DNA from: Eledone cirrhosa
Taxonomy: Eukaryota
Direction of reading: 5' to 3'
DNA length: 64,000 bases
Assembly: GCA_964016885.1 (NCBI GenBank)
Contig: OZ024748.1
Span: 58,218,001 to 58,282,000 of the forward strand
The first letter of the stretch is position 1, and the number at the start of each line of letters is the position of its first letter. Shown here one piece after another: positions 10,089 through 50,000 of the stretch. Under the pieces are notes generated by a model. It was not told the origin of the DNA and did not search any database. It worked only from the letters and a program-made list of their open reading frames with translations. Both the position numbers and the translations under genes were made by a program.

Positions 10089-11611
10089 ATATATAAATGA
10101 GGTAACACGTTATCGTTATAGGTAATACAGTTAGAGGTTGTGAGTACTCTGCTTCGTGGATAGTTTTAACGTACGGCTTTGTTTACCTCAACAAGCTGTT
10201 TCCATAGCTAGGCAGCGAGTTTGCGAGAATTCCTATGTAGGTTATATTTGGAGTAGTAATAGTGAAAGAATGAACAGTAACACGTTTGGCTGTACAACAA
10301 GGGTCTTTCTTTCAGGTATTGACAATTGTTTCATTGATCAGGTGAGTCTAGAGGTCGCTAATCCCTTGAAGTTGCGCCACTCGATTATATTAGTTACCTC
10401 TGACCAACTCATCAGAATACCATATATATATATATATACATACGTACATACGTACATACGTATCTATGTATGTATAACTTTGATATGTTTCAGCCAGTAT
10501 CCGCTAGGGCCATATTGGACATAGTAGCACAGTCCGGCGAAATTTTTCAAATCTTGATTTGGACACCGTAGCCCACGCAAGTAGAGAGCTATTGTTTACG
10601 CTGAGATATCCGAGTTTAGCTGGGATTGGATGGTGGAATATGCCCAAAAGACTTTTGAATTTTCTGGGATCTGTTTATGTTGCTATGTGTTTTTGTGCAA
10701 CATTAAACAGAGAGGGATCAGATGTGGTGAAATAATTGTGCCGTAATGCTGTTATGAGACACGAGGTTGAATTTTGTTATAGGCGGATAGTACATGGCCC
10801 AAGGTGTACTTTAAAGAATGATGCCGACATCATTAATATATATATATATATACATTTTATATATACATGTATATATGCATATGTACATGTATGTATATGC
10901 ATGTGTATGTATATGTGTATATATCTATATTTATACATGTATATATAGATATGTATATATATTTGCGTGTGTATGTACGTAGGTGTCCCGTGTTCGATCG
11001 CGGGTCACCACAGAAAGTAAGGTACACAATACATTAGTAGAGTGAATATAATAAAAATTAATATAAAATGGCTTCATCAGGTCTAGAACTGTTTCATTCA
11101 AATGTTATACATATATGTGTATATATATATACATATATATATATGTGTGTATATATATATACATATAGGAGAGGAAGATCATGTGTGAGCGAATGTGTGT
11201 TTCTCCATACATGCGTACATGAGCATATGTATCACTATATATTCATATAGTTGTGCGCGTGAGGTGCTCCTTCCATCGTCTCTGGCTTTTCGTCCCGCAG
11301 AGTGGAAATTTGAGCAAGTGGTTTTGGAGTTTTAGGAGTGCCATGTAATAGATGTAAAGAACAAAAGCGTAATATATATGAGATACATTTTCAGTTAATT
11401 CAACATATTACTCGTTGTTGTTCCACAAGGGGGAACCACGCGATAATGGAGACTCATATATCTAATAGAAGCGACATATCTATGCGACAAATATAAGGAC
11501 TTCGTCCAGATATATCAATAATTATATTTTATTTTGTTTAGCTTTTAACTTGGCGATTCGGTTTTTAGAAAGGGTGTTTTTCTAGATTCACTGGATAAAG
11601 ACAGCTTAATA

Positions 11612-20344: not shown

Positions 20345-21160
20345 CTTAAACACCACACACAACCGGAAGCTGGCAATATAGGCACCCGATAGAACCATGT
20401 GGAGGGAAAGAAGGGTTGACCCAGTAACCCAAACAGACCCAGGGACCCCCCACCGGGCCCGGGGAAGGACCACCATATAATACGCAATGGGAACCCCACA
20501 TTAGGCACGCGGGGGTTGACCACCTCCTGCAACTGCAGAAACCCAGCATTAGGTCCCTTAGTAATGAATGTCTAAGGAAGAAACTTAATATACGGATGTA
20601 GGGTAAAAATCCCCAACTCTGAACACCTTTACATAGGACCCACATCAACGAGTTTTAAGGATCGATGGTATAACCTCGCCACTCCATTAACATGGAGGAC
20701 AAAAGGAAAAGTACGGCTCTTTCCGAACTGATCTGGAAGCTCAAGCTGGACAGGACCGCATACTCTCTGGCCTGGTCCAAAATCAGGAAAGTACCACCTG
20801 ATAAAGGGGGATCTGGCATCTGCAAACTATGTCTGAGCGAGACCCTCAGCGGTGGAAGCAGCCTGATAAACCTCAGGAGTGACTTTTTCGGGACATGTAG
20901 ACACCTCAGGGCCGGGACCTTCCTCAAGCTATATGAACAATAACAACACTTTGGGATGGGAACTACCCTTAAGCTATAGGGACTTCCCGGGACATGTAGA
21001 CACATCAGGGCCGGGATCTTCCTCTAGCTATATGGGCAACAACAACTCATTGGGAAGGTAACTTCCCTCAAGCTATAGGGACAGTAGCCCCGCCACACCG
21101 AGCCCACGGTAAACCACCCCCTACACTTTCACCATCCCTACCCCTGCCTCGATCAACTCC
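20345..21160 (+). mobile_element. Penelope-like element fragment: GIY-YIG endonuclease, frameshifted
   Basis: SCNCRNPALGPLSNECL, LIYGCRV, YIGPTSTSFKDRWYN, then ORF 20692 STALSELIWKLK...CKLCLSE...INLRSDFFGTCRH, the typical C-terminal PLE endonuclease signature. Begins at a (TA)n tract. Confidence 0.82.
20881..21080 (+). repeat. Tandem duplication of a ~100-bp unit spanning the PLE stop codon
   Basis: Two diverged copies of gact..cgggacatgtagacac.tcagggccggga..ttcctc..gctatatg...aagctatagg. Confidence 0.85.
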
Positions 21161-26262: not shown

Positions 26263-26364
26263 GTATATATATAGTATATATATATATATATATATATACA
26301 TATAGTATATATATAGTATATATATATATATATACATATAGTATATATATATATATATATATAT

Positions 26365-29300
26365 CCTCAACCACAACCTCTTCTGGTTCCTCAGCTCCAC
26401 CAAAGCCCGCACAGCGACGAGTTCCGCACCCGAACGGAAGTCGAGCGATTCGTGCGACGCACTAAGCTACCGGCACATTTCGGCCGAACGCCACCGGCTC
26501 CGGACGCCCCAGACCCGTTTCTCGCCCTGGGCCGACGACCATCTTCTTGGACGCCGGCCCCAGGGCAATTTAGCACCCTGGACGCCTTCGTCGATGCCAG
26601 ACGTAGCGCAGTAAATCGTTTCGACTTCCGCCACCATTCCAAAGGGCACAATATCTCACGGGGCGAACTCCTCGCTCTCCGCTCCCTCCGTAGCCGAGAT
26701 GACATCGTCATCAAACCGGCGGACAAGGGAGGCGCCGTAGTGGTATGGCGCGCGGACCTCTACACGGCCAAAGCCCTCAGGCAGCTCTGTAACTCCCTCT
26801 TTTACCGCCCTCTACCCTCCGATCCCACCCCCTCTACCAACAACAAGTCTCCTCCACCATCAAATACCTTATCGCCTCCTCCCCCCCCCCCACCGCTTCC
26901 CACCTCATCGTCCGCACCTCCACCATCTACTTCCTCGCCAAACTCCACAAACCCGACAACCCCGGCCGCCCATCGTCTCCGCTTGCAACTGCCCCACCGA
27001 ACTCATCTCCGCCTTTCTCGACTCCCTCCTCGCCCCCCTTGTCACCACCCTCCCCTCCCACATCTCTGACACCAACCACGCCCTGCGCCTTTTCGACTCC
27101 TTCACCTACCTACCCGGCCCACAGCCCTTCCTCTTCACCCTAGACATCAAGTCCCTCTATACAGTCATCCCCCACGCCGACGGCCTTCGCGCCCTCAAAC
27201 ACTACCTCGACCTTCGCCCCTCCCCCATTCCCTCCACCCCCACCCTCCTTCGCCTCGCCGAGCTGGTCCTCACCCTAAATTGTTTCTCCTTCTCGGGTGA
27301 GTTTTACCAACAGGTCACGGTGGTAGCCATGGGCACAAGAATGGGCCCGAACTATGCCAACCTTTTTGTTGGCCATGTTGAGACCCAAATCTTTGCCTAG
27401 TACACCGGCCCCACGCCCGAACTGTACGGTCGTTACATTGACGTCTGTATCGGAGCCACGACCCTCACCCGAGAACAGCTCGACTCCTTTCTCTCCTTCT
27501 TCTGCTCCTTCCACCCCTCCCTCCACTTCACCACCTCTATCTCCACCACCCACGTCCACTTCTTAGACATCGCCGTCGCCTTCGACCCCTCCCACCACTC
27601 CCTCGTCACCTCCGCCTTCTTCAACCGACTCCCATTTCTTCAATCCGCCGACTCCCACTCTTACCTCGACTTCACCTCTTACCACCCCACCCACACTAAA
27701 CACTCCATTCCCTACTCCCAACTTCTCAGGATCCGCCGCCTCTGTAGCCGTGATGCTGACTTCGAGTCCCAGGCCCTTTCCCTAGTCAGTCATTTCATCC
27801 GCAGAGGTTACCCCCCCTCTCTCGTCTACACCGCTCTCACCCGCGCCCGTGCTATCCCCCGCTCCACCACCCTCACCCCACGCCACCGCACACCCACCTA
27901 CCGTCTCCCCTTCCCCATCACCTACCACCCCTCCACCTTACCCCTCCACCGCACCATCCGCCGCCTCTTCCGACGCCTGCAGTCCGACCCCTCCACCTCC
28001 CACATCTTCCCCCCCACTCCCCTCCTTCAAACGCGCACGCAATCTCCGCACCCTCCTCGTCCACAGCTCCCTACCCCCCAACCCACGCTATGTCCCCCCC
28101 CGGTTCCTTTCCCTGTTCTAGGCCCCGCTGCAACACCTGTCCCCACATAACCAACACCACCACCTTCCAGGGTCCCAACGGCCACTCTCTCTCGGTCCGG
28201 CATGCCTTTCGCTGCACCTCCTCCAACCTAGTCTACGGACTTATGTCGGACAGACAGGACGTCGCCTGGCGGACCGAGTCACGGAGCACCTCCGGGATAT
28301 TCGTCTCAGGGGCAGTTCCCCATCGCCCGCCACTTTGGTGGCCCTGGACACTCCGCACACCATCTCACAGTCTGTGGCCTACTCCAGTGCCACGGAACAC
28401 CCGCCCATCGCCTTACGGTCGAACAACGAACTATCTTCATCTTACAGACCCACACTTCCCACGGCCTGAACTCCCCACCCTTACTCCTTTAGCGTTTGAC
28501 ACCCCCCCCCCCGCACACACACACTTATCCCCCACTAACACCACTAACACACCCCTCCTTTTCACCGCCCACCCCACACTAACAATACTAACACCTCCAC
28601 TCCACCCCTCATCTGACCACCCTTCCCCAACTAACATACTAACATCCCTTCCCTCCCCTCTTCTCCTCCCCCTCCTTATCACACGCACACACCCACCGGC
28701 ACATATATACACACGCTCACACTAAACACACACCCTACTACCACCGCTAACCCTCACCTCCACACCTCTCACCCCAACACTTCCATCCCACCACCCCGCA
28801 ACTAACCTCACTAACACCCCCTAACCACAAGCACACGAACACACGCACCCACCCCACACGCAACTAACATCACTAACACCCCCCAACCCCACGCACACGT
28901 ACCCACACACCCTCGTACACCACCAACTCTACACACCTACCACCACTAACCCCCACTCACACCTGCATTCAACCGCTCCCCACCTCCCGTATACTAACAC
29001 CCACTAACACCTCCTCATCAAACTACACACACACCAGTACACCACACTCCCTCCATAGAACCACACACACTCTTCTCTCCCCGCTCCACCCACACCCTCG
29101 CTCCACACTCACTCATCCCACTAACACCCCTACTAATACACACACACACACACACACACCCTCCTCACTCCAACTTTCACACCTACCCATCCTCGCCCCC
29201 TTACCATTCCACCGACTGCTGTTATGCCCTTCTGACCACCTCCCAGCACCAACAGACCACAGCACTCCCATTGCTGACCACTTCCTGTTGCGCGCGCACC

Positions 29301-29667
29301 CCACATCTCTCCTCTTCCGACCACCGCTTCATGGATTACCCACACGCAGAAATTGACTTACAACCAATCCTCTAAACATCCTTGGAACTTACCAACTTTT
29401 CAACCATCCTCTTACGTAATCACCTATATAACTCACCCACACACACACCCAAAAAAAACAATTTTCTCCACACGCCACCCACACCCACAACACGCTTAAA
29501 CCCCACATACACGTGCTTCCCACCACCTATTTACACCCTCAGCCTCCTGATTCCTCTCCCCCCACCCCCCTATCCACAGACGCACAGACACTCCGACCCA
29601 CAAAAACACCCCCCACACATACCTCTTCCTGAACATGCAACCCCATTCTTCCCCCAACCCTTACTTT

Positions 29668-29706
<39 letters not shown>

Positions 29707-30130
29707 CTACACACACACACCACCTTCAGCCCTCCCCGCTCGGACACCCCGTCTCCCTCTCCCCACTCCACCCGCCACCCCCCTACCCACCCCACACCCT
29801 TCCACCACCTGTTTACCCCCCTTTTAATTTCAGTTTATTTTGATCATGCCTTTATTTTTAAATGTTCTCATTCCTTGTATTTTGATCATGCTTTATTTTT
29901 ATTTTTTATCTTTATTTGTTATTTTTTCATTCGCACCGTTTCCTTTCGCTATATGTCTCTCCACCACTCCCCTACACACCTTTTGAACAGTGTTCCCACA
30001 CACTTCTCACCTGAGGAAGGGCTTATGCCCGAAACGTCGTCCCCCACCTACCCCCCACTCTCCTGAGCGTGAAATTAATAAACAATTATTGTACTGCCTC
30101 TCTGTTTTGTCCCTGTTCAAATTTTTCCAT
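26365..30130 (+). mobile_element. Penelope-like retroelement (Neptune-like), 5'-truncated and frameshifted: RT + GIY-YIG + C-rich 3' region + HHR
   Basis: IVIKPADKGGAVVVW; LFTLDIKSLYTVIPH; VAMGTRMGPNYANLFVG; RYIDV (YIDD mutated, 27434-27445); linker PCSRPRCNTC; SNLVY...YVGQTGRRLADRVTEH; AATAAA ~30077; (TA)n on both flanks. Confidence 0.93.
30008..30041 (+). ncRNA. Minimal hammerhead motif in the PLE 3' repeat
   Basis: CTGAGGA-a-gggc-ttat-gccc-GAAACGTC; stem I weak. Confidence 0.65.
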
Positions 30131-31257
30131 TATATATATATATATATATATTATATATATCGTATGTTTGAGCGAAAAATCATTTCAGAATTTCTATTAT
30201 TTCCTTCGATTATTTTCACGAGGTTTTTGGTCGATAAGTCTATGCCTTTAAATAAATGCCTGGAGGTTTTCAATAAATAGTTATTCCAGAGAATAAATAT
30301 AAATATGTTATCACAAATAAACATTCACCGATTCAATGCCATTTATTTATATCGATTTACCAACGACCTAGAACTTTATCTTATGTATGATTTATTTCAT
30401 AAACGCATTTAAATGGGACTATAATCAATGCATATTCTTATAATGACAACTATTGGCGTTGGTGTTAATGTTTCCTATTCTATATTTAAAACTAAGTAAG
30501 TTTACGCGCGTGATGTTTCTCAAATAATGTTACTGTTGCTTATTTATTTTTTCAATTTATTGAATTGGAAAAAAAATGCATTAAAGTTTCTTTTGCACTT
30601 TTTTTAATGTATTTGCTGAGTATAACATCTGATTCTACCGTCTATCTAAATTCAAACACTATTCTATTTTTCTTTCTGTTAGTTTCTTCTTTCGATCAAA
30701 CAATTAGCAAACGCATATGTGGCCGATTGAATCGATTAAACTCCCATTGCATAAAGATTTATAACAAGTCTACAATGGAATCAATAATATTTGTATTTAT
30801 TTCACTGTTATTTTGCAAGTATTTCTGCAGTTATGGTTCAGTTAGTTATAATAATGTAGTTAGCGTCCGATGACAATGCTTATAGTATTTGCAGCTTCAT
30901 TTAAGTGGTTGCATTGATGGATCTAATATGTAGTCATCATGTCTTTAGACAACGTGATTGCAGTACTGTCCAACGCAGTTACATGAAACAGTATATTAGC
31001 TAGAGGTGTGCAGCCAAGGGACGTGTTATTTTCTACCAATATTATCATCCCAATATATATATATATATATATACTGGTGTGATTTCAGATCTGAACGATG
31101 AGGAGTAACAAATCAGATTAACTAGATACTTCAAGGCTATGTTATATGGGCCATTTATTGCACTATAAGGTTTCTGTTGCCAGTAACATTTAATAAACGC
31201 ATGTCTGTTTACCAATATTTCATCCATGTTTAGAACAAATTATGATTTATCAAGAGA

Positions 31258-45583: not shown

Positions 45584-46574
45584 ATGTTTCTTTTATTTGC
45601 CACTAGGGCATCAAAAGTGGGACAAGTACAAAGGGGGGAGTTTACACAAAAAGGCGTCCTCAATAAGGAGGAGGCAATAACAAAATATAAAAATAAAATA
45701 AGATATAACAAAAAATAAAATTTTTAACAAAATCCTCAATAGAGAGGAGGCGCCTTGGGGGGTCGCACACACCCCCGAAAAAAGTGTGCAACCTTTCTCC
45801 TCGGGAGCACAGAGAAGGGGTGCTCCCTTGGTCTTTCATCTTCCTCACCTATAGTCTGATGTAGAGTGAAGGCCCATTCACACGGGCCATTCTCGCCACT
45901 TTCACCCATCTTTCATAGAAACGGCTGGGGTGCAGCACCTCTCTCTCCATCCTGATCCTTCTTCCGAAATGATATCGGAAGAAACGGACCAGTTGTTGGC
46001 CAGAGAGAAAGGTGCCTGACCTCAGTCCTTTCAGACGCGTCCACCATACAACCTCTTTCGCCATGGCTATTACGCACAGAAACACCGCCTCTGCTTCATC
46101 TTTGAAGGGGGGAGGCGGCTTGATCATTACAATAGACTCGGTGGTCAACCGGATCGGTCCCACCCTTGACAGCAGTTGTTCGACATAGCCCCACAGATCT
46201 GCTACGCCCGAGCAGTGTACCAATGCGTGTGCAACGGTTTCCTCGTCGCGCACGCATCTGGGACAGATCTTTTTGGCGGGGTCCCTACCCGGGCGCCCGT
46301 GTCTGTAGAGCCTTTCTCGAACGGGTAAAGCCCCTCGGTAGCACTGCCAGGCGAGGGACTTCTGGAAGTTGTCCATAGGTCCCGGGCTGAATGTCCTACC
46401 GAACAGGCTGGCCAGTTCGTCATCCTCCATGTCTAGGGCTTCTCCGAGGGCGTCGTCGCACCTGCTGCGTACCAGCCCTCTATAGAATGTTGCGCTGGAG
46501 TCTCCACTGATAACCGGATCCGCCTGCCAGAGGGCGGTGAGCGCCTGGGCACACTCAGTGTGCCAGGCGCCCAG
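45584..46574 (-). mobile_element. L1/Tx1-like LINE, 5'-truncated; ORF2 C-terminus with zf-RVT-type zinc finger
   Basis: Open frame 46574-45849: [16 protein letters not shown]...[18 protein letters not shown]...LW; 3'UTR with AATAAA; embedded in (TA)/(GATA)n. Confidence 0.85.
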
Positions 46575-46622
46575 ATAGATATAGATAGATAGATAGATAG
46601 ATATAGATAGATATAGATATAT

Positions 46623-46655
<33 letters not shown>

Positions 46656-46690
46656 TATATATAGATATAGATATAGATATAGATATATAG

Positions 46691-46729
<39 letters not shown>

Positions 46730-46730
46730 T

Positions 46731-46765
<35 letters not shown>

Positions 46766-46903
46766 TAGATATAGATATAGATAGATATAGATATAGATAG
46801 ATAGATATAGATATATATAGATAGATATATATATATATAAATATATAGATATAGATATAGATATAGATATATAGATATAGATATATAGATATAGATATAG
46901 ATA

Positions 46904-46941
<38 letters not shown>

Positions 46942-46986
46942 GATATATATATATAGAGAGATATATATATAGATATATAGATATAG

Positions 46987-47021
<35 letters not shown>

Positions 47022-47464
47022 TAGATATATATATATATATATATATATATAGATATATATATAGATATATATATATATATATATATATAGATATATATAT
47101 AGATATATATATAGATAAATATATATAGATATATATATAGATATATATATATAGATATATATATAGATATATATATATATAGATATATATATAGATATAT
47201 ATATATATATAGATATATAGATATATATATATAGATATATAGATATATATATATATATATATAGATATATATATATAGATATATATATATATAGATATAT
47301 ATATAGATATATATATATAGATATATAGATATATATATATATATAGATATATATAGATATAGATATATATAGATATATATATATATATAGATATATATAT
47401 ATATAGATATATATAGATATATATATAGATATAGATATATAGATATATATATAGATATATATAT

Positions 47465-47947
47465 AAAGAATTAAGAATTAAAAAGAACAGAAAAATGCAG
47501 TAAAAGAGATTTATTCGGTTCTTACGTACGTTTCAATAGACATCAATTTGCCTAGATCTCGCTACATCTATAATATTATATATTTAGTAGAGCATTCGAT
47601 ATCCAATGCACAATCGATCCCATATCATCAGAGATAATCTCTGATGATATGGGATCGATTGTGCATTGGATATCGAATGCTCTACTAAATATTATAGATG
47701 TAGCGAGATCTAGGCAAATTGATGTCTATTGAAACGTACGTAAGAACCGAATAAATCTCTTTTACTGCATCTTTCTGTTCTTTTTAATTCTTAATTCTTT
47801 ATACACGCCCCGGAATATAGCTAAACTGGAATATACAACTTTTTTCGGCATTTCGTTGAGCACCACTCTGTTGTAAGCTGACATTCCACTACACGGTACA
47901 TAACACTGTGTCCTGGAAAACATTAATGCACTCGTGCATAACCAATT
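47465..47947 (+). mobile_element. Fold-back PLE-type insert: ~170-bp arms, 1-nt apex at 47636
   Basis: 47465-47635 is the inverted copy of 47637-47800; tail runs to 47947; TA-type microsatellite on both sides. Confidence 0.9.
47638..47745 (+). ncRNA. Type-I hammerhead, canonical core, 83-nt stem II (mirror copy on minus strand at 47520-47634)
   Basis: tct-CTGATGA-[83 nt; atcgatt/aattgat pairing]-GAAAC-GTAC-GTA|aga; AATAAA at 47750. Confidence 0.78.
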
Positions 47948-47971
47948 ATATATATATATAGAGATATAGAG

Positions 47972-48036
<65 letters not shown>

Positions 48037-48273
48037 TATATATATATATAGATATATATATAGATATATAGATATATATATATATAGATATATATAGATA
48101 TATATATATAGATATATATATGTATATATATAGATATAGATATATATATATAGATATAGATATATATATAGATATAGATATAGTTATAGATATATATATA
48201 TAGATAGATATATACATAGATATATATATATAGATATATATAGATATAGATATATATATAGTTATATATATAG

Positions 48274-48312
<39 letters not shown>

Positions 48313-48730
48313 TATATATATAGATATATATATAGAGATATATATAGATATATATAGATATAGATATATATATAGATATATATATAGATATATATATAGA
48401 TATATATATAGATATATATATAGATATATATATATATATATATAGATATATATAGATATATATATATAGATATATATATATATATAGATATATATATATA
48501 TATAGATATATATATATATATAGATATATATATAGATATATATATAGATATATATATAGATATATATATATATATAGATATATATATATATAGATATATA
48601 GATATATAGATATATAGATATATAGATATAGATATATATATAGATATATATATAGATATAGATATATAGATATATATATAGATATATATATAGATATATA
48701 TATAGATATATATATAGATATATATATATA

Positions 48731-49078
48731 TTAGAAAGTGAGGTTTTTTTTACAAAATGAAAAATAACCGAGGTGTCCTACACGTGTGAAATTATAAAGA
48801 AAAAGAGATGAAATTGAAAATGCAACTGGAGTCTTATTTCTTTTAAAAATATATATATTTATTTGGTTCCTTTACCGGTTTCGCAGTTCTTCTGCTTTTC
48901 AAAAGGTGAGTTGAGATGGAGGGTCTGCGGTTTTTCTCGAAAATCCACAGACCCTCCATCTCAACTCACCTTTTGAAAAGCAGAAGAACTGCGAAACCGG
49001 TAAAGGAACCAAATAAATATATATATTTTTAAAAGAAATAAGACTCCAGTTGCATTTTCGATTTCATCTCTTTTTCTA
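48731..49078 (-). mobile_element. Fold-back PLE-type insert: ~140-bp arms, apex 48937-48938
   Basis: 48798-48936 is the inverted copy of 48939-49077; the left arm has an extra tail to 48731. Confidence 0.9.
48969..49006 (+). ncRNA. Minimal hammerhead, U3-A8 variant (identical mirror copy on minus strand at 48869-48906)
   Basis: cctt-TTGAAAA-gcag-aagaa-ctgc-GAAA-CCGG-TA|aagg; AATAAA at 49012. Confidence 0.82.

Positions 49079-49311: not shown

Positions 49312-50000
<689 letters not shown>

What the first reader, a model, noticed from the sequence alone, without database searches (positions are those of the whole stretch)
47465..47947. Palindrome whose apex abuts a canonical HHR with an 83-nt stem II
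Seen: perfect CTGATGA / GAAAC-GTAC-GTA core, 3-bp stem I starting 2 nt from the 1-nt apex, palindromic loop III, and an 83-nt structured insertion replacing the usual short stem II. Standard HHR models would probably miss it. Transcription from either direction gives a ~170-bp hairpin that sequesters the ribozyme (inference).
Basis: partly seen in the sequence, partly recalled or inferred. Interest (0 to 1): 0.72.

Follow-up and report, generated by a model that had tools for sequence, protein, structure and literature searches.

The report
Mirror Penelope insert, long-armed hammerhead
This is a short mirror-image insertion of a young Penelope-type jumping gene, a known layout that likely arose from two copying runs on one RNA; its predicted self-cutting RNA motif carries an 83-90-base arm whose fold is kept across a dozen related families in this genome and that we did not find described in print.

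Summary
The 483 bp are the 3' pseudo-LTR of a young Hydra-clade Penelope-like retrotransposon (328 exact matches to a 26-mer), inserted in (TA)n as a tailed copy plus an inverted tailless copy. That layout is published, and ribozyme sequestration in the hairpin is a by-product of it. Among 101 family arms, 3' ends fall mostly at two sites 143 nt apart. 26 of 28 head-to-head pairs have one arm of each type, and five loci exclude simple fold-back copying, which favours two priming events. 39 of the 46 arms that pass the core stop within 12 nt upstream of it, about 30 nt below a TATA box, so the apex probably marks the RNA 5' end. Three sister families lack this sharp wall, against my prediction. 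The long stem II is inherited, not a quirk of this copy: about 20,700 cores with 70-100-nt spacers (control 1,045), and a covarying rod with two bulged-A modules about 10 bp apart in 12 families. Published Hydra stems II have 3-7 bp. Cleavage and expression are untested. This scan already noted long-armed Hydra hammerheads and twin priming on other DNA. Verdict: new variant of a known kind.

The parts
46572..47464 (.). (TA)n/(GATA)n microsatellite, left flank (insertion target)
   Evidence: Hydra elements insert in (TA)n (PMC8557442 section 11)
47465..47635 (-). Inverted, tailless pLTR arm, starting at the first 3'-end site (+163 equivalent, counted from C3) and ending 4 nt upstream of its core
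47520..47634 (-). Second type I hammerhead motif, with family-length 90-nt stem II (core 47631-47625, predicted cut between 47523 and 47522)
47634..47637 (.). Apex: head-to-head junction; the two arms overlap by a 2-nt AT microhomology, unpaired centre 47636
   Evidence: sequence; compared with ORF-linked copies
47634..47947 (+). Direct pLTR arm, from 7 nt upstream of the core to the second 3'-end site (+306 equivalent)
47638..47745 (+). Type I hammerhead motif: 3-bp stem I, CUGAUGA, GAAA, stem III AC/GU with palindromic GUAC loop, predicted cut after GUA at 47742
47648..47730 (+). Long stem II rod (83 nt; 7 nt of the apical part deleted in this arm)
47663..47715 (+). Two conserved modules: bulged A at 47665 (facing UAG 47711-47713) and bulged A at 47676 (facing UAG 47701-47703), about 10 bp apart
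47804..47947 (+). One-sided tail (144 nt) between the two 3'-end sites; followed by the ORF 5' region in tandem copies
47948..48730 (.). (TA)n/(GATA)n microsatellite, right flank

Best explanation
This is a non-coding, two-armed insertion of the 3' pseudo-LTR of a young Hydra-clade Penelope-like retrotransposon in a (TA)n tract, likely made by two target-primed reverse transcriptions that ran from the element's two fixed 3'-end sites to what is probably the 5' end of one short RNA and were joined head to head. Shown: family identity, ORF linkage, target, two end sites, one tailed plus one tailless arm, pile-up of 5' ends just upstream of the core. Inferred: (1) the pLTR has a TATA promoter whose transcript starts 7-11 nt before the hammerhead core, which is why the apex abuts the ribozyme (about 0.55); (2) the GIY-YIG protein nicks both strands of the TA tract and primes one cDNA at +306 and one at +163 (about 0.8); (3) the cDNA ends joined through the AT microhomology at 47634-47635; (4) any transcript across the insert buries the ribozyme in a ~170-bp duplex, a by-product of the geometry. 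The long stem II is an inherited RNA structure kept by compensatory change (shown by covariation). Its likeliest job is to act as a handle for the element's own protein through the two bulged-A modules (inferred, about 0.35). The ribozyme would cut weakly, as a stem-III dimer or with protein help (inferred from PMC4209133 and PMC11167929).
For: Family: 40 of 40 scored candidates (of 461) at 94-100% identity over the 311-nt arm; median divergence of arms 1%. ORF: 7 of 30 copies share upstream sequence, which in the longer ones encodes RT + GIY-YIG; a 798-aa frame has the DKT, CxCx5C, CxxC and CxH motifs that define Hydra; Atlas neighbours at 0.96-0.99 carry HTH_animal, GIY-YIG or RVT_1. Ends: 47 of 101 arms end at +163 and 47 at +306; 26 of 28 pairs have one tailed and one tailless arm, as expected from two internal start sites and cleavage of both strands (PMC11167929, parts 1-2 of 4). 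Two primings: in L089, L093, L102, L112 and L152 the tailless arm covers 90 nt or more that the tailed arm lacks. One template: pair ends lie within 3 nt in 14 of 28 pairs against 4.0 expected; the minor +86 allele is shared by both arms in 9 pairs and discordant in 1; both arms of this copy carry a 7-nt duplication absent from the other 29 copies. RNA start: 39 of the 46 arms passing the core stop at -12..-1, and 31 of 36 when counted per insertion, in three allele classes; TATAAAA lies at -39, and a TATA motif at -47..-34 in 6 of 9 families, with only 1 other hit in their 330-nt upstream windows. Stem II: basal helix 6 of 6 pairs with double changes in 21 sequences; named structure 83.9% paired against 32-39% slid, 9 pairs with double changes; 216 of 288 cells paired in 12 families against 34-38% slid; long-stem hammerheads lie 387-899 nt behind endonuclease domains 32-68% identical to family A.
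Against: My written prediction of a wall near -17 in family B failed: 0 of 30 arms end at -19..-1 and 21 of 30 run past -170. A second prediction (wall wherever stem I is intact) failed in family D (1 of 30 at -12..-1) and was weak in C (3 of 30, plus -13 and 0). RNAalifold found no consensus stem II on two MAFFT alignments and only the basal helix on a third. The structures counted were named or anchored by hand, which favours them over slid controls. The monomer hammerhead fold lies 5.6-7.4 kcal/mol above the MFE with stem I probability 0.00, and 5 of 19 clusters have only 1 contiguous stem I pair. No family A arm clearly starts at the cut site (L132 is explained by an allele), against 1 of 30 in B and 1 of 30 in C. 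29 unshared against 15 shared differences between paired arms fit later mutation but also two templates. Later deletions could mimic the non-overlapping arms. The core letters were fixed by my search pattern, so their invariance there is not evidence.
Confidence: 0.72

Rival explanations
1. The palindrome arose by self-priming (fold-back) on one template, as proposed for Penelope inverted repeats, so one arm is a copy of the other.
For: Pair ends often coincide and apexes have 0-3-nt spacers; both arms share rare variants; the model is proposed in PMC3846280 (passages).
Against: Five loci have a tailless arm that covers sequence absent from the tailed arm, and three have arms with no overlap at all. 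Each arm starts at one of two fixed sites flanked by TA. A 1-nt loop cannot form in a fold-back (established RNA/DNA geometry).
Confidence: 0.12
2. The pile-up of 5' ends just before the core is not the transcript start. It comes from short source copies truncated there, or from a local polymerase stop or TA microhomology, peculiar to family A.
For: The wall is absent in B and D and weak in C, although B and D also have a TATA motif; ACATAAT resembles the TA target; a second hot spot lies in the TA-rich apical loop (26 of 101).
Against: The stop rate is 0.071 per nt at -12..-1 against 0.016 in the more TA-like loop and 0.0015 at -200..-13; three allele classes share the wall; only a weak hairpin (-5.1 kcal/mol) is predicted upstream; the TATA spacing fits.
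Confidence: 0.3
3. The motif no longer cleaves. The hammerhead-shaped scaffold and long stem II are kept only as a protein-binding or RNA-pairing structure.
For: Stem I has 1 bp in family B and 4 other clusters; the monomer fold is unfavourable; hammerhead cleavage was dispensable for insertion in vitro in an Anolis element (PMC11167929); templates are uncut in nearly all arms.
Against: Family B, found by RT similarity and not by the pattern, keeps the full core; stem I covaries in the 80-nt group (2 of 3 pairs); stem III is a perfect 8-nt palindrome in 15 of 19 clusters although the pattern fixed only half of it.
Confidence: 0.3
4. The palindrome is a selected regulatory device (ribozyme switch or dsRNA source) at this locus.
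For: Both hammerheads are intact and the hairpin would bury them in either direction.
Against: The layout is routine for this family; the copy is about 95% identical to its siblings; it lies in a multi-kb microsatellite nest of other repeats; it lacks the TATA motif.
Confidence: 0.03

Closest known systems
Hydra-clade Penelope-like elements and their hammerheads (Craig et al. 2021, PMC8557442; abstract, passages, section 11, supplement parts 1, 2 and 52 of 59 read)
   Same: C-terminal GIY-YIG, DKT, CxCx5C linker, CxxC and CxH, (TA)n target, sense-strand type I hammerhead near the 3' end, palindromic stem III, extra unpaired bases at the foot of stem II, inverted 5'-truncated copy and one-sided tail.
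   Different: In File S2 the 26 Hydra rows have stem II of 3-7 bp with 3-10-nt loops, including Hydra-1_oBim. Here the spacer is 83-90 nt with two conserved bulged-A modules. The tail is 143 nt rather than 30-40 and the unit about 3.1 kb rather than under 3 kb. RWK is RWS in family A (RWK in family B).
Minimal type I hammerheads of metazoan PLEs (Cervera and De la Pena 2014, PMC4209133; parts 1-2 of 4 read, supplements not seen)
   Same: In the pLTR, short stem I, palindromic stem III suited to dimer formation, nucleotide between 9 and 10.1, low activity expected as monomer.
   Different: There helix II is 6-8 bp with G10.1-C11.1; here it is a rod of about 30 bp with U.U at that position.
Poseidon element of Anolis, PAc (Frangieh et al. 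2024, PMC11167929; parts 1-2 of 4 read)
   Same: Two internal reverse-transcription start sites define the tail; both target strands are cut and extended; uncut RNA is the template.
   Different: Different clade; its hammerhead overlaps the ORF start; inverted two-armed products and the RNA 5' end are not treated in the parts read.
EN+ Penelope elements of Adineta vaga (Arkhipova et al. 2013, PMC3846280; passages read)
   Same: [quoted passage not shown]
   Different: That paper explains the palindromes by self-priming on an antisense template; copies here favour two primings.
Animal non-LTR retrozymes (PMC7229834, passages; bioRxiv 10.64898/2026.07.22.740005, part 1 of 5)
   Same: Short non-coding units with a type I hammerhead, related to PLE pLTRs.
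   Different: No head-to-tail array here and no sign of unit-length cut or circular templates; the copy is a truncated end of an autonomous family.

Membership tests
Hydra-clade PLE | Single ORF with RT and C-terminal GIY-YIG endonuclease | tested here: met
   798-aa frame with YRDD and VYQ...YIG upstream of the same pLTR; Atlas neighbours with GIY-YIG/RVT_1. Pfam scans gave no significant hit.
Hydra-clade PLE | DKT in place of DKG; RWK motif | tested here: met
   ADKTS in A and B; RWK in B, RWS in A, read by eye against the description
Hydra-clade PLE | CxCx5C linker; CxxC and CxH around conserved E and N | tested here: met
   CNCNLPDRC, CRLC, CNH
Hydra-clade PLE | Insertion into (TA)n | tested here: met
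   TA repeats follow the 3' end in the great majority of the 101 arms
Hydra-clade PLE | RT phylogeny with named Hydra elements | not tested
   Reference sequences were seen only in a paper supplement and were not entered into tools
EN+ PLE insertion structure | Inverted 5'-truncated copy and one-sided tail | tested here: met
Type I hammerhead ribozyme | Core C3-A9, G12-A14, A15.1-U16.1, H17 around three stems, open stem I | tested here: met
   intact in 38 of 45 spanning arms
Type I hammerhead ribozyme | G10.1-C11.1 pair and short stem II with loop I/loop II contact | tested here: not met
   U.U at the foot, 83-90-nt rod; no Rfam hammerhead hit; a U-U mismatch there is known in natural hammerheads (PMC3088659, passages)
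Type I hammerhead ribozyme | Self-cleavage after H17 | not testable with these tools
   No RNA run listed; copy ends give no clear signal at the cut site
Non-LTR retrozyme | Head-to-tail tandem units bounded by hammerheads | tested here: not met
   One direct and one inverted arm only

The most novel reading that the evidence does not exclude
In a radiation of Hydra-type Penelope elements the hammerhead has been rebuilt into an assembly platform: a 75-100-nt stem II with two bulged-A modules one helical turn apart binds the dimeric RT-endonuclease, which chaperones cleavage, while the palindromic stem III can pair two RNAs. It sits at the very 5' end of a TATA-driven pLTR transcript that is copied twice, from both ends of one DNA break. 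Roughly 18,000 such motifs in one genome are invisible to Rfam, and the families differ in ways that make the open question of how Penelope inverted repeats form directly testable.
Probability: 0.2. Interest if true: 0.75.

Novelty: new variant of a known kind. Interest (0 to 1): 0.45.

Why it matters
The palindrome itself is ordinary Penelope debris. Two things go beyond it. First, a large class of natural hammerhead motifs with a long, conserved stem II that standard models miss gives a defined candidate for the protein-binding site of protein-assisted PLE ribozymes and changes the hammerhead census in such genomes. Second, the copy statistics (two fixed end sites, non-overlapping arms, coincident 5' ends, TATA-spaced wall) bear on the open question of how PLE inverted repeats arise, favouring two-ended priming over self-priming, and place the hammerhead at the start of the pLTR transcript.

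Tried and rejected
The repeat finder was swamped by microsatellites. Pfam scans of ORF pieces and full frames gave no significant family. No RNA holder listed; the three coded runs laid on the locus are contigs of unrecorded kind from one sample and say nothing on expression. RNAalifold gave no stem II consensus on alignments A2 and A3; row A3_L040 of A2 was taken 6 nt off register. Prediction 'TATA sets a wall in every family' failed in B; 'intact stem I sets a wall' failed in D and was weak in C. An extra cap-templated G before the -11 end is ambiguous: G in 5 of 15 distinct stopped contexts, several explained by the inverted arm. A-to-I footprint: none in stem II (A>G 7 of 1,435 sites against T>C 5 of 1,675). 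A G>A excess in stem II (15 against 1 C>T) is scattered and its G>A rate equals that of the tail, so it was not pursued. The 39-69-nt spacer count (21,437 against 1,348) was not used because many listed hits are one repeat that looks like LINE RT coding sequence; the reversed control does not correct for such repeats, a caveat for too. A test of single origin of the long stem II failed for lack of an outgroup: none of 20 short-stem loci fetched had an endonuclease match passing the filter. Family M (L157, L158, L174) lacks the two modules and was dropped; close subfamily rows were also left out there (12 of 21 rows counted). An extended stem I (CGGU/ACCG) is possible only in ORF-linked copies, but it is not supported by the MFE or by other families. 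A direct genome-wide count of apex-abutting palindromes was not obtained; the figures come from a sample of 101 arms. A sequence look-up in earlier scan notes found nothing.

Full report
Observation. The plus-strand motif has TCT/AGA as stem I, CTGATGA at 47641, an 83-nt spacer, GAAAC-GTAC-GTA at 47731-47742 and an unpaired apex base at 47636. The inverted arm matches over 168 nt with one mismatch and a 7-nt indel, and carries a second complete motif with a 90-nt spacer. The direct arm runs on for a 144-nt tail; both sides are long TA/GATA microsatellites. Rfam finds no hammerhead at gathering score or at E<=10. The palindrome folds at -269.5 kcal/mol; forcing the hammerhead costs 162 kcal/mol, so sequestration follows if the region is transcribed, which I could not test (no RNA holder listed).

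Identity. The 311-nt arm is a young repeat in a 3.0-Gb genome: 40 of 40 scored candidates (of 461) match at 94-100%, a 26-mer has 328 exact matches, and median divergence is 1%. [quoted passage not shown] A 798-aa frame (L043) shows DKT, YRDD, CxCx5C, CxxC and CxH, the marks of the Hydra clade in PMC8557442 (section 11). Pfam gave nothing significant; Atlas neighbours carry HTH_animal, GIY-YIG or RVT_1 at shares of 13-100%. The same paper describes inverted 5'-truncated copies and one-sided tails as typical of PLEs (passages), as does PMC3846280 (passages). The window copy is thus the solo 3' pLTR, inserted as a direct tailed arm and an inverted tailless arm. I did not determine the organism; other scan notes call it octopus-like (unchecked).

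How the palindrome formed. I mapped both ends of 101 arms (the first 100 listed matches plus one partner), counting from C3. 3' ends: 47 at +163, 47 at +306, 7 elsewhere. Of 28 head-to-head pairs, 26 have one tailed and one tailless arm. Families B and D show two such sites as well (+168/+276 and +155/+270). This fits the two internal start sites and two-strand cleavage shown for an Anolis PLE (PMC11167929, parts 1-2 of 4). In L089, L093 and L102 the tailed arm stops 3' of where the tailless arm begins, and in L112 and L152 the tailless arm reaches 90 nt or more further 5', so one arm cannot be a copy of the other; later deletion is a caveat. The two 5' ends lie within 3 nt in 14 of 28 pairs against 4.0 expected from independent draws; the minor +86 allele is shared in 9 pairs and discordant in 1; and both arms here carry a 7-nt duplication that none of the other 29 copies has. 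I infer two primings on one RNA (or one source), both running to its 5' end, joined by short self-complementary ends (AT at 47634-47635). 29 differences between paired arms are unshared; I read them as later mutation.

Why the apex abuts the ribozyme. 39 of the 46 arms that pass the core stop at -12..-1 and only 7 go further; per insertion, 31 of 36. The stop rate is 0.071 per nt against 0.016 in the TA-rich apical loop, the second hot spot. Three allele classes share the wall, which argues against one truncated source copy. TATAAAA begins at -39, 28-32 nt before the commonest ends, and 6 of 9 families have a TATA motif at -47..-34 with one other hit in their 330-nt upstream windows. I infer a pLTR promoter whose RNA starts just before the hammerhead. 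Against this, two predictions written in advance failed: family B has no wall (0 of 30 at -19..-1), family D has none (1 of 30) and C a weak one (3 of 30). The wall is a family A trait, perhaps because its short pLTR RNAs are the main template; that step is unexplained.

The long stem II. It is not peculiar to this copy. CTGANGA-N(70-100)-GAAACNNNNGTH occurs 20,748 times against 1,045 for the reversed control, more often than with an 8-38-nt spacer (13,271 against 2,944). By eye about 86 of the first 100 listed hits belong to the families studied, so roughly 18,000 is my estimate. Fetched hits fall in 19 clusters; 15 of 19 representatives have a perfectly palindromic 8-nt stem III although the pattern fixed half of it. 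Seven families have the motif 387-899 nt behind an endonuclease domain (A, plus six at 32-68% identity to it). Family B was found by RT similarity alone and has the full core with a 90-nt rod. The basal helix covaries in 21 sequences (6 of 6 pairs with double changes). RNAalifold found no longer consensus on sequence-only alignments. A structure named by hand on 13 sequences gives 83.9% paired cells, 9 pairs with double changes and 0 of 500 shuffles as high, against 32-39% when slid. An anchored count over one row for each of 12 families gives 216 of 288 paired against 34-38% slid. Both controls favour a hand-fitted structure, so this is support, not proof. The rod holds the same module twice: a bulged A followed by N.G and U-A, facing UAG, 9-13 nt apart on the 5' strand (10 or 11 in 10 of 12 families). 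Published Hydra hammerheads have stem II of 3-7 bp (File S2) and PLE minimal hammerheads 6-8 bp (PMC4209133, parts 1-2 of 4). Seven literature searches and passages of PMC6155905, PMC7229834, PMC3088659 and PMC13282606 showed no natural class like this; subscription papers and several supplements were not searched.

Does it cut? Untested. The monomer fold is 5.6-7.4 kcal/mol above the MFE, the ACGUACGU palindrome can form an 8-bp intermolecular duplex (-11.8 kcal/mol), and 5 of 19 clusters have a 1-bp stem I. Copies almost never start at the cut site (none clear of 101 in A, 1 of 30 in B, 1 of 30 in C, 0 of 30 in D), in line with uncut RNA being the template. I commit to weak, dimer- or protein-assisted cleavage, and to stem II as a protein handle, at low confidence.

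Verdict. A routine Penelope inverted end carrying an unusual but clade-wide hammerhead variant. The scan has met long-armed Hydra hammerheads, twin priming and RNA-start stubs on other DNA (unchecked notes). New variant of a known kind; interest 0.45.

Noticed in passing
window 10309-10427, minus strand: Another long-stem-II hammerhead (76-nt spacer, 6-bp stem I, palindromic stem III) of a sister family, 5'-truncated into a TA repeat just upstream of its core.
   Followed up: partly
window about 49460-49540, minus strand: Hammerhead core with a 48-nt spacer and 10-nt palindromic stem III, in the same microsatellite nest; relatives in L057.
   Followed up: no
window 20528-20928: Decayed endonuclease region of a Hydra-like element (31-44% identity to the family A protein).
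   Followed up: no
window about 26360-30170: GC-rich, C-skewed broken frames with a DKG motif and a GIY-YIG-like stretch, apparently another Penelope-like copy, with a hammerhead-like core near 30010; read by eye.
   Followed up: no
window 48731-49074 and 49409-49999: Further long palindromic repeat fragments between microsatellite runs.
   Followed up: no
L048:4833-4965 and family B: Family B keeps the full core, palindromic stem III and 90-nt rod but has only 1 bp of stem I, and its copies are mostly long or tandem: a natural test of whether cleavage matters.
   Followed up: partly
G000:C1, listing: A short-stem hammerhead family also forms head-to-head pairs with cores 0-50 nt apart (for example C1:17640174-17640235), so apex-abutting cores are not tied to the long stem.
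   Followed up: no
L016, L025, L029 and family B arms L189, L193, L197: The same unrelated repeat fragment appears at several inverted junctions, in three family B arms at the identical position +46, suggesting template switching to another abundant RNA.
   Followed up: no
L258 and L185: One arm each in families C and B starts exactly at the predicted cut site; too few to exceed chance.
   Followed up: partly
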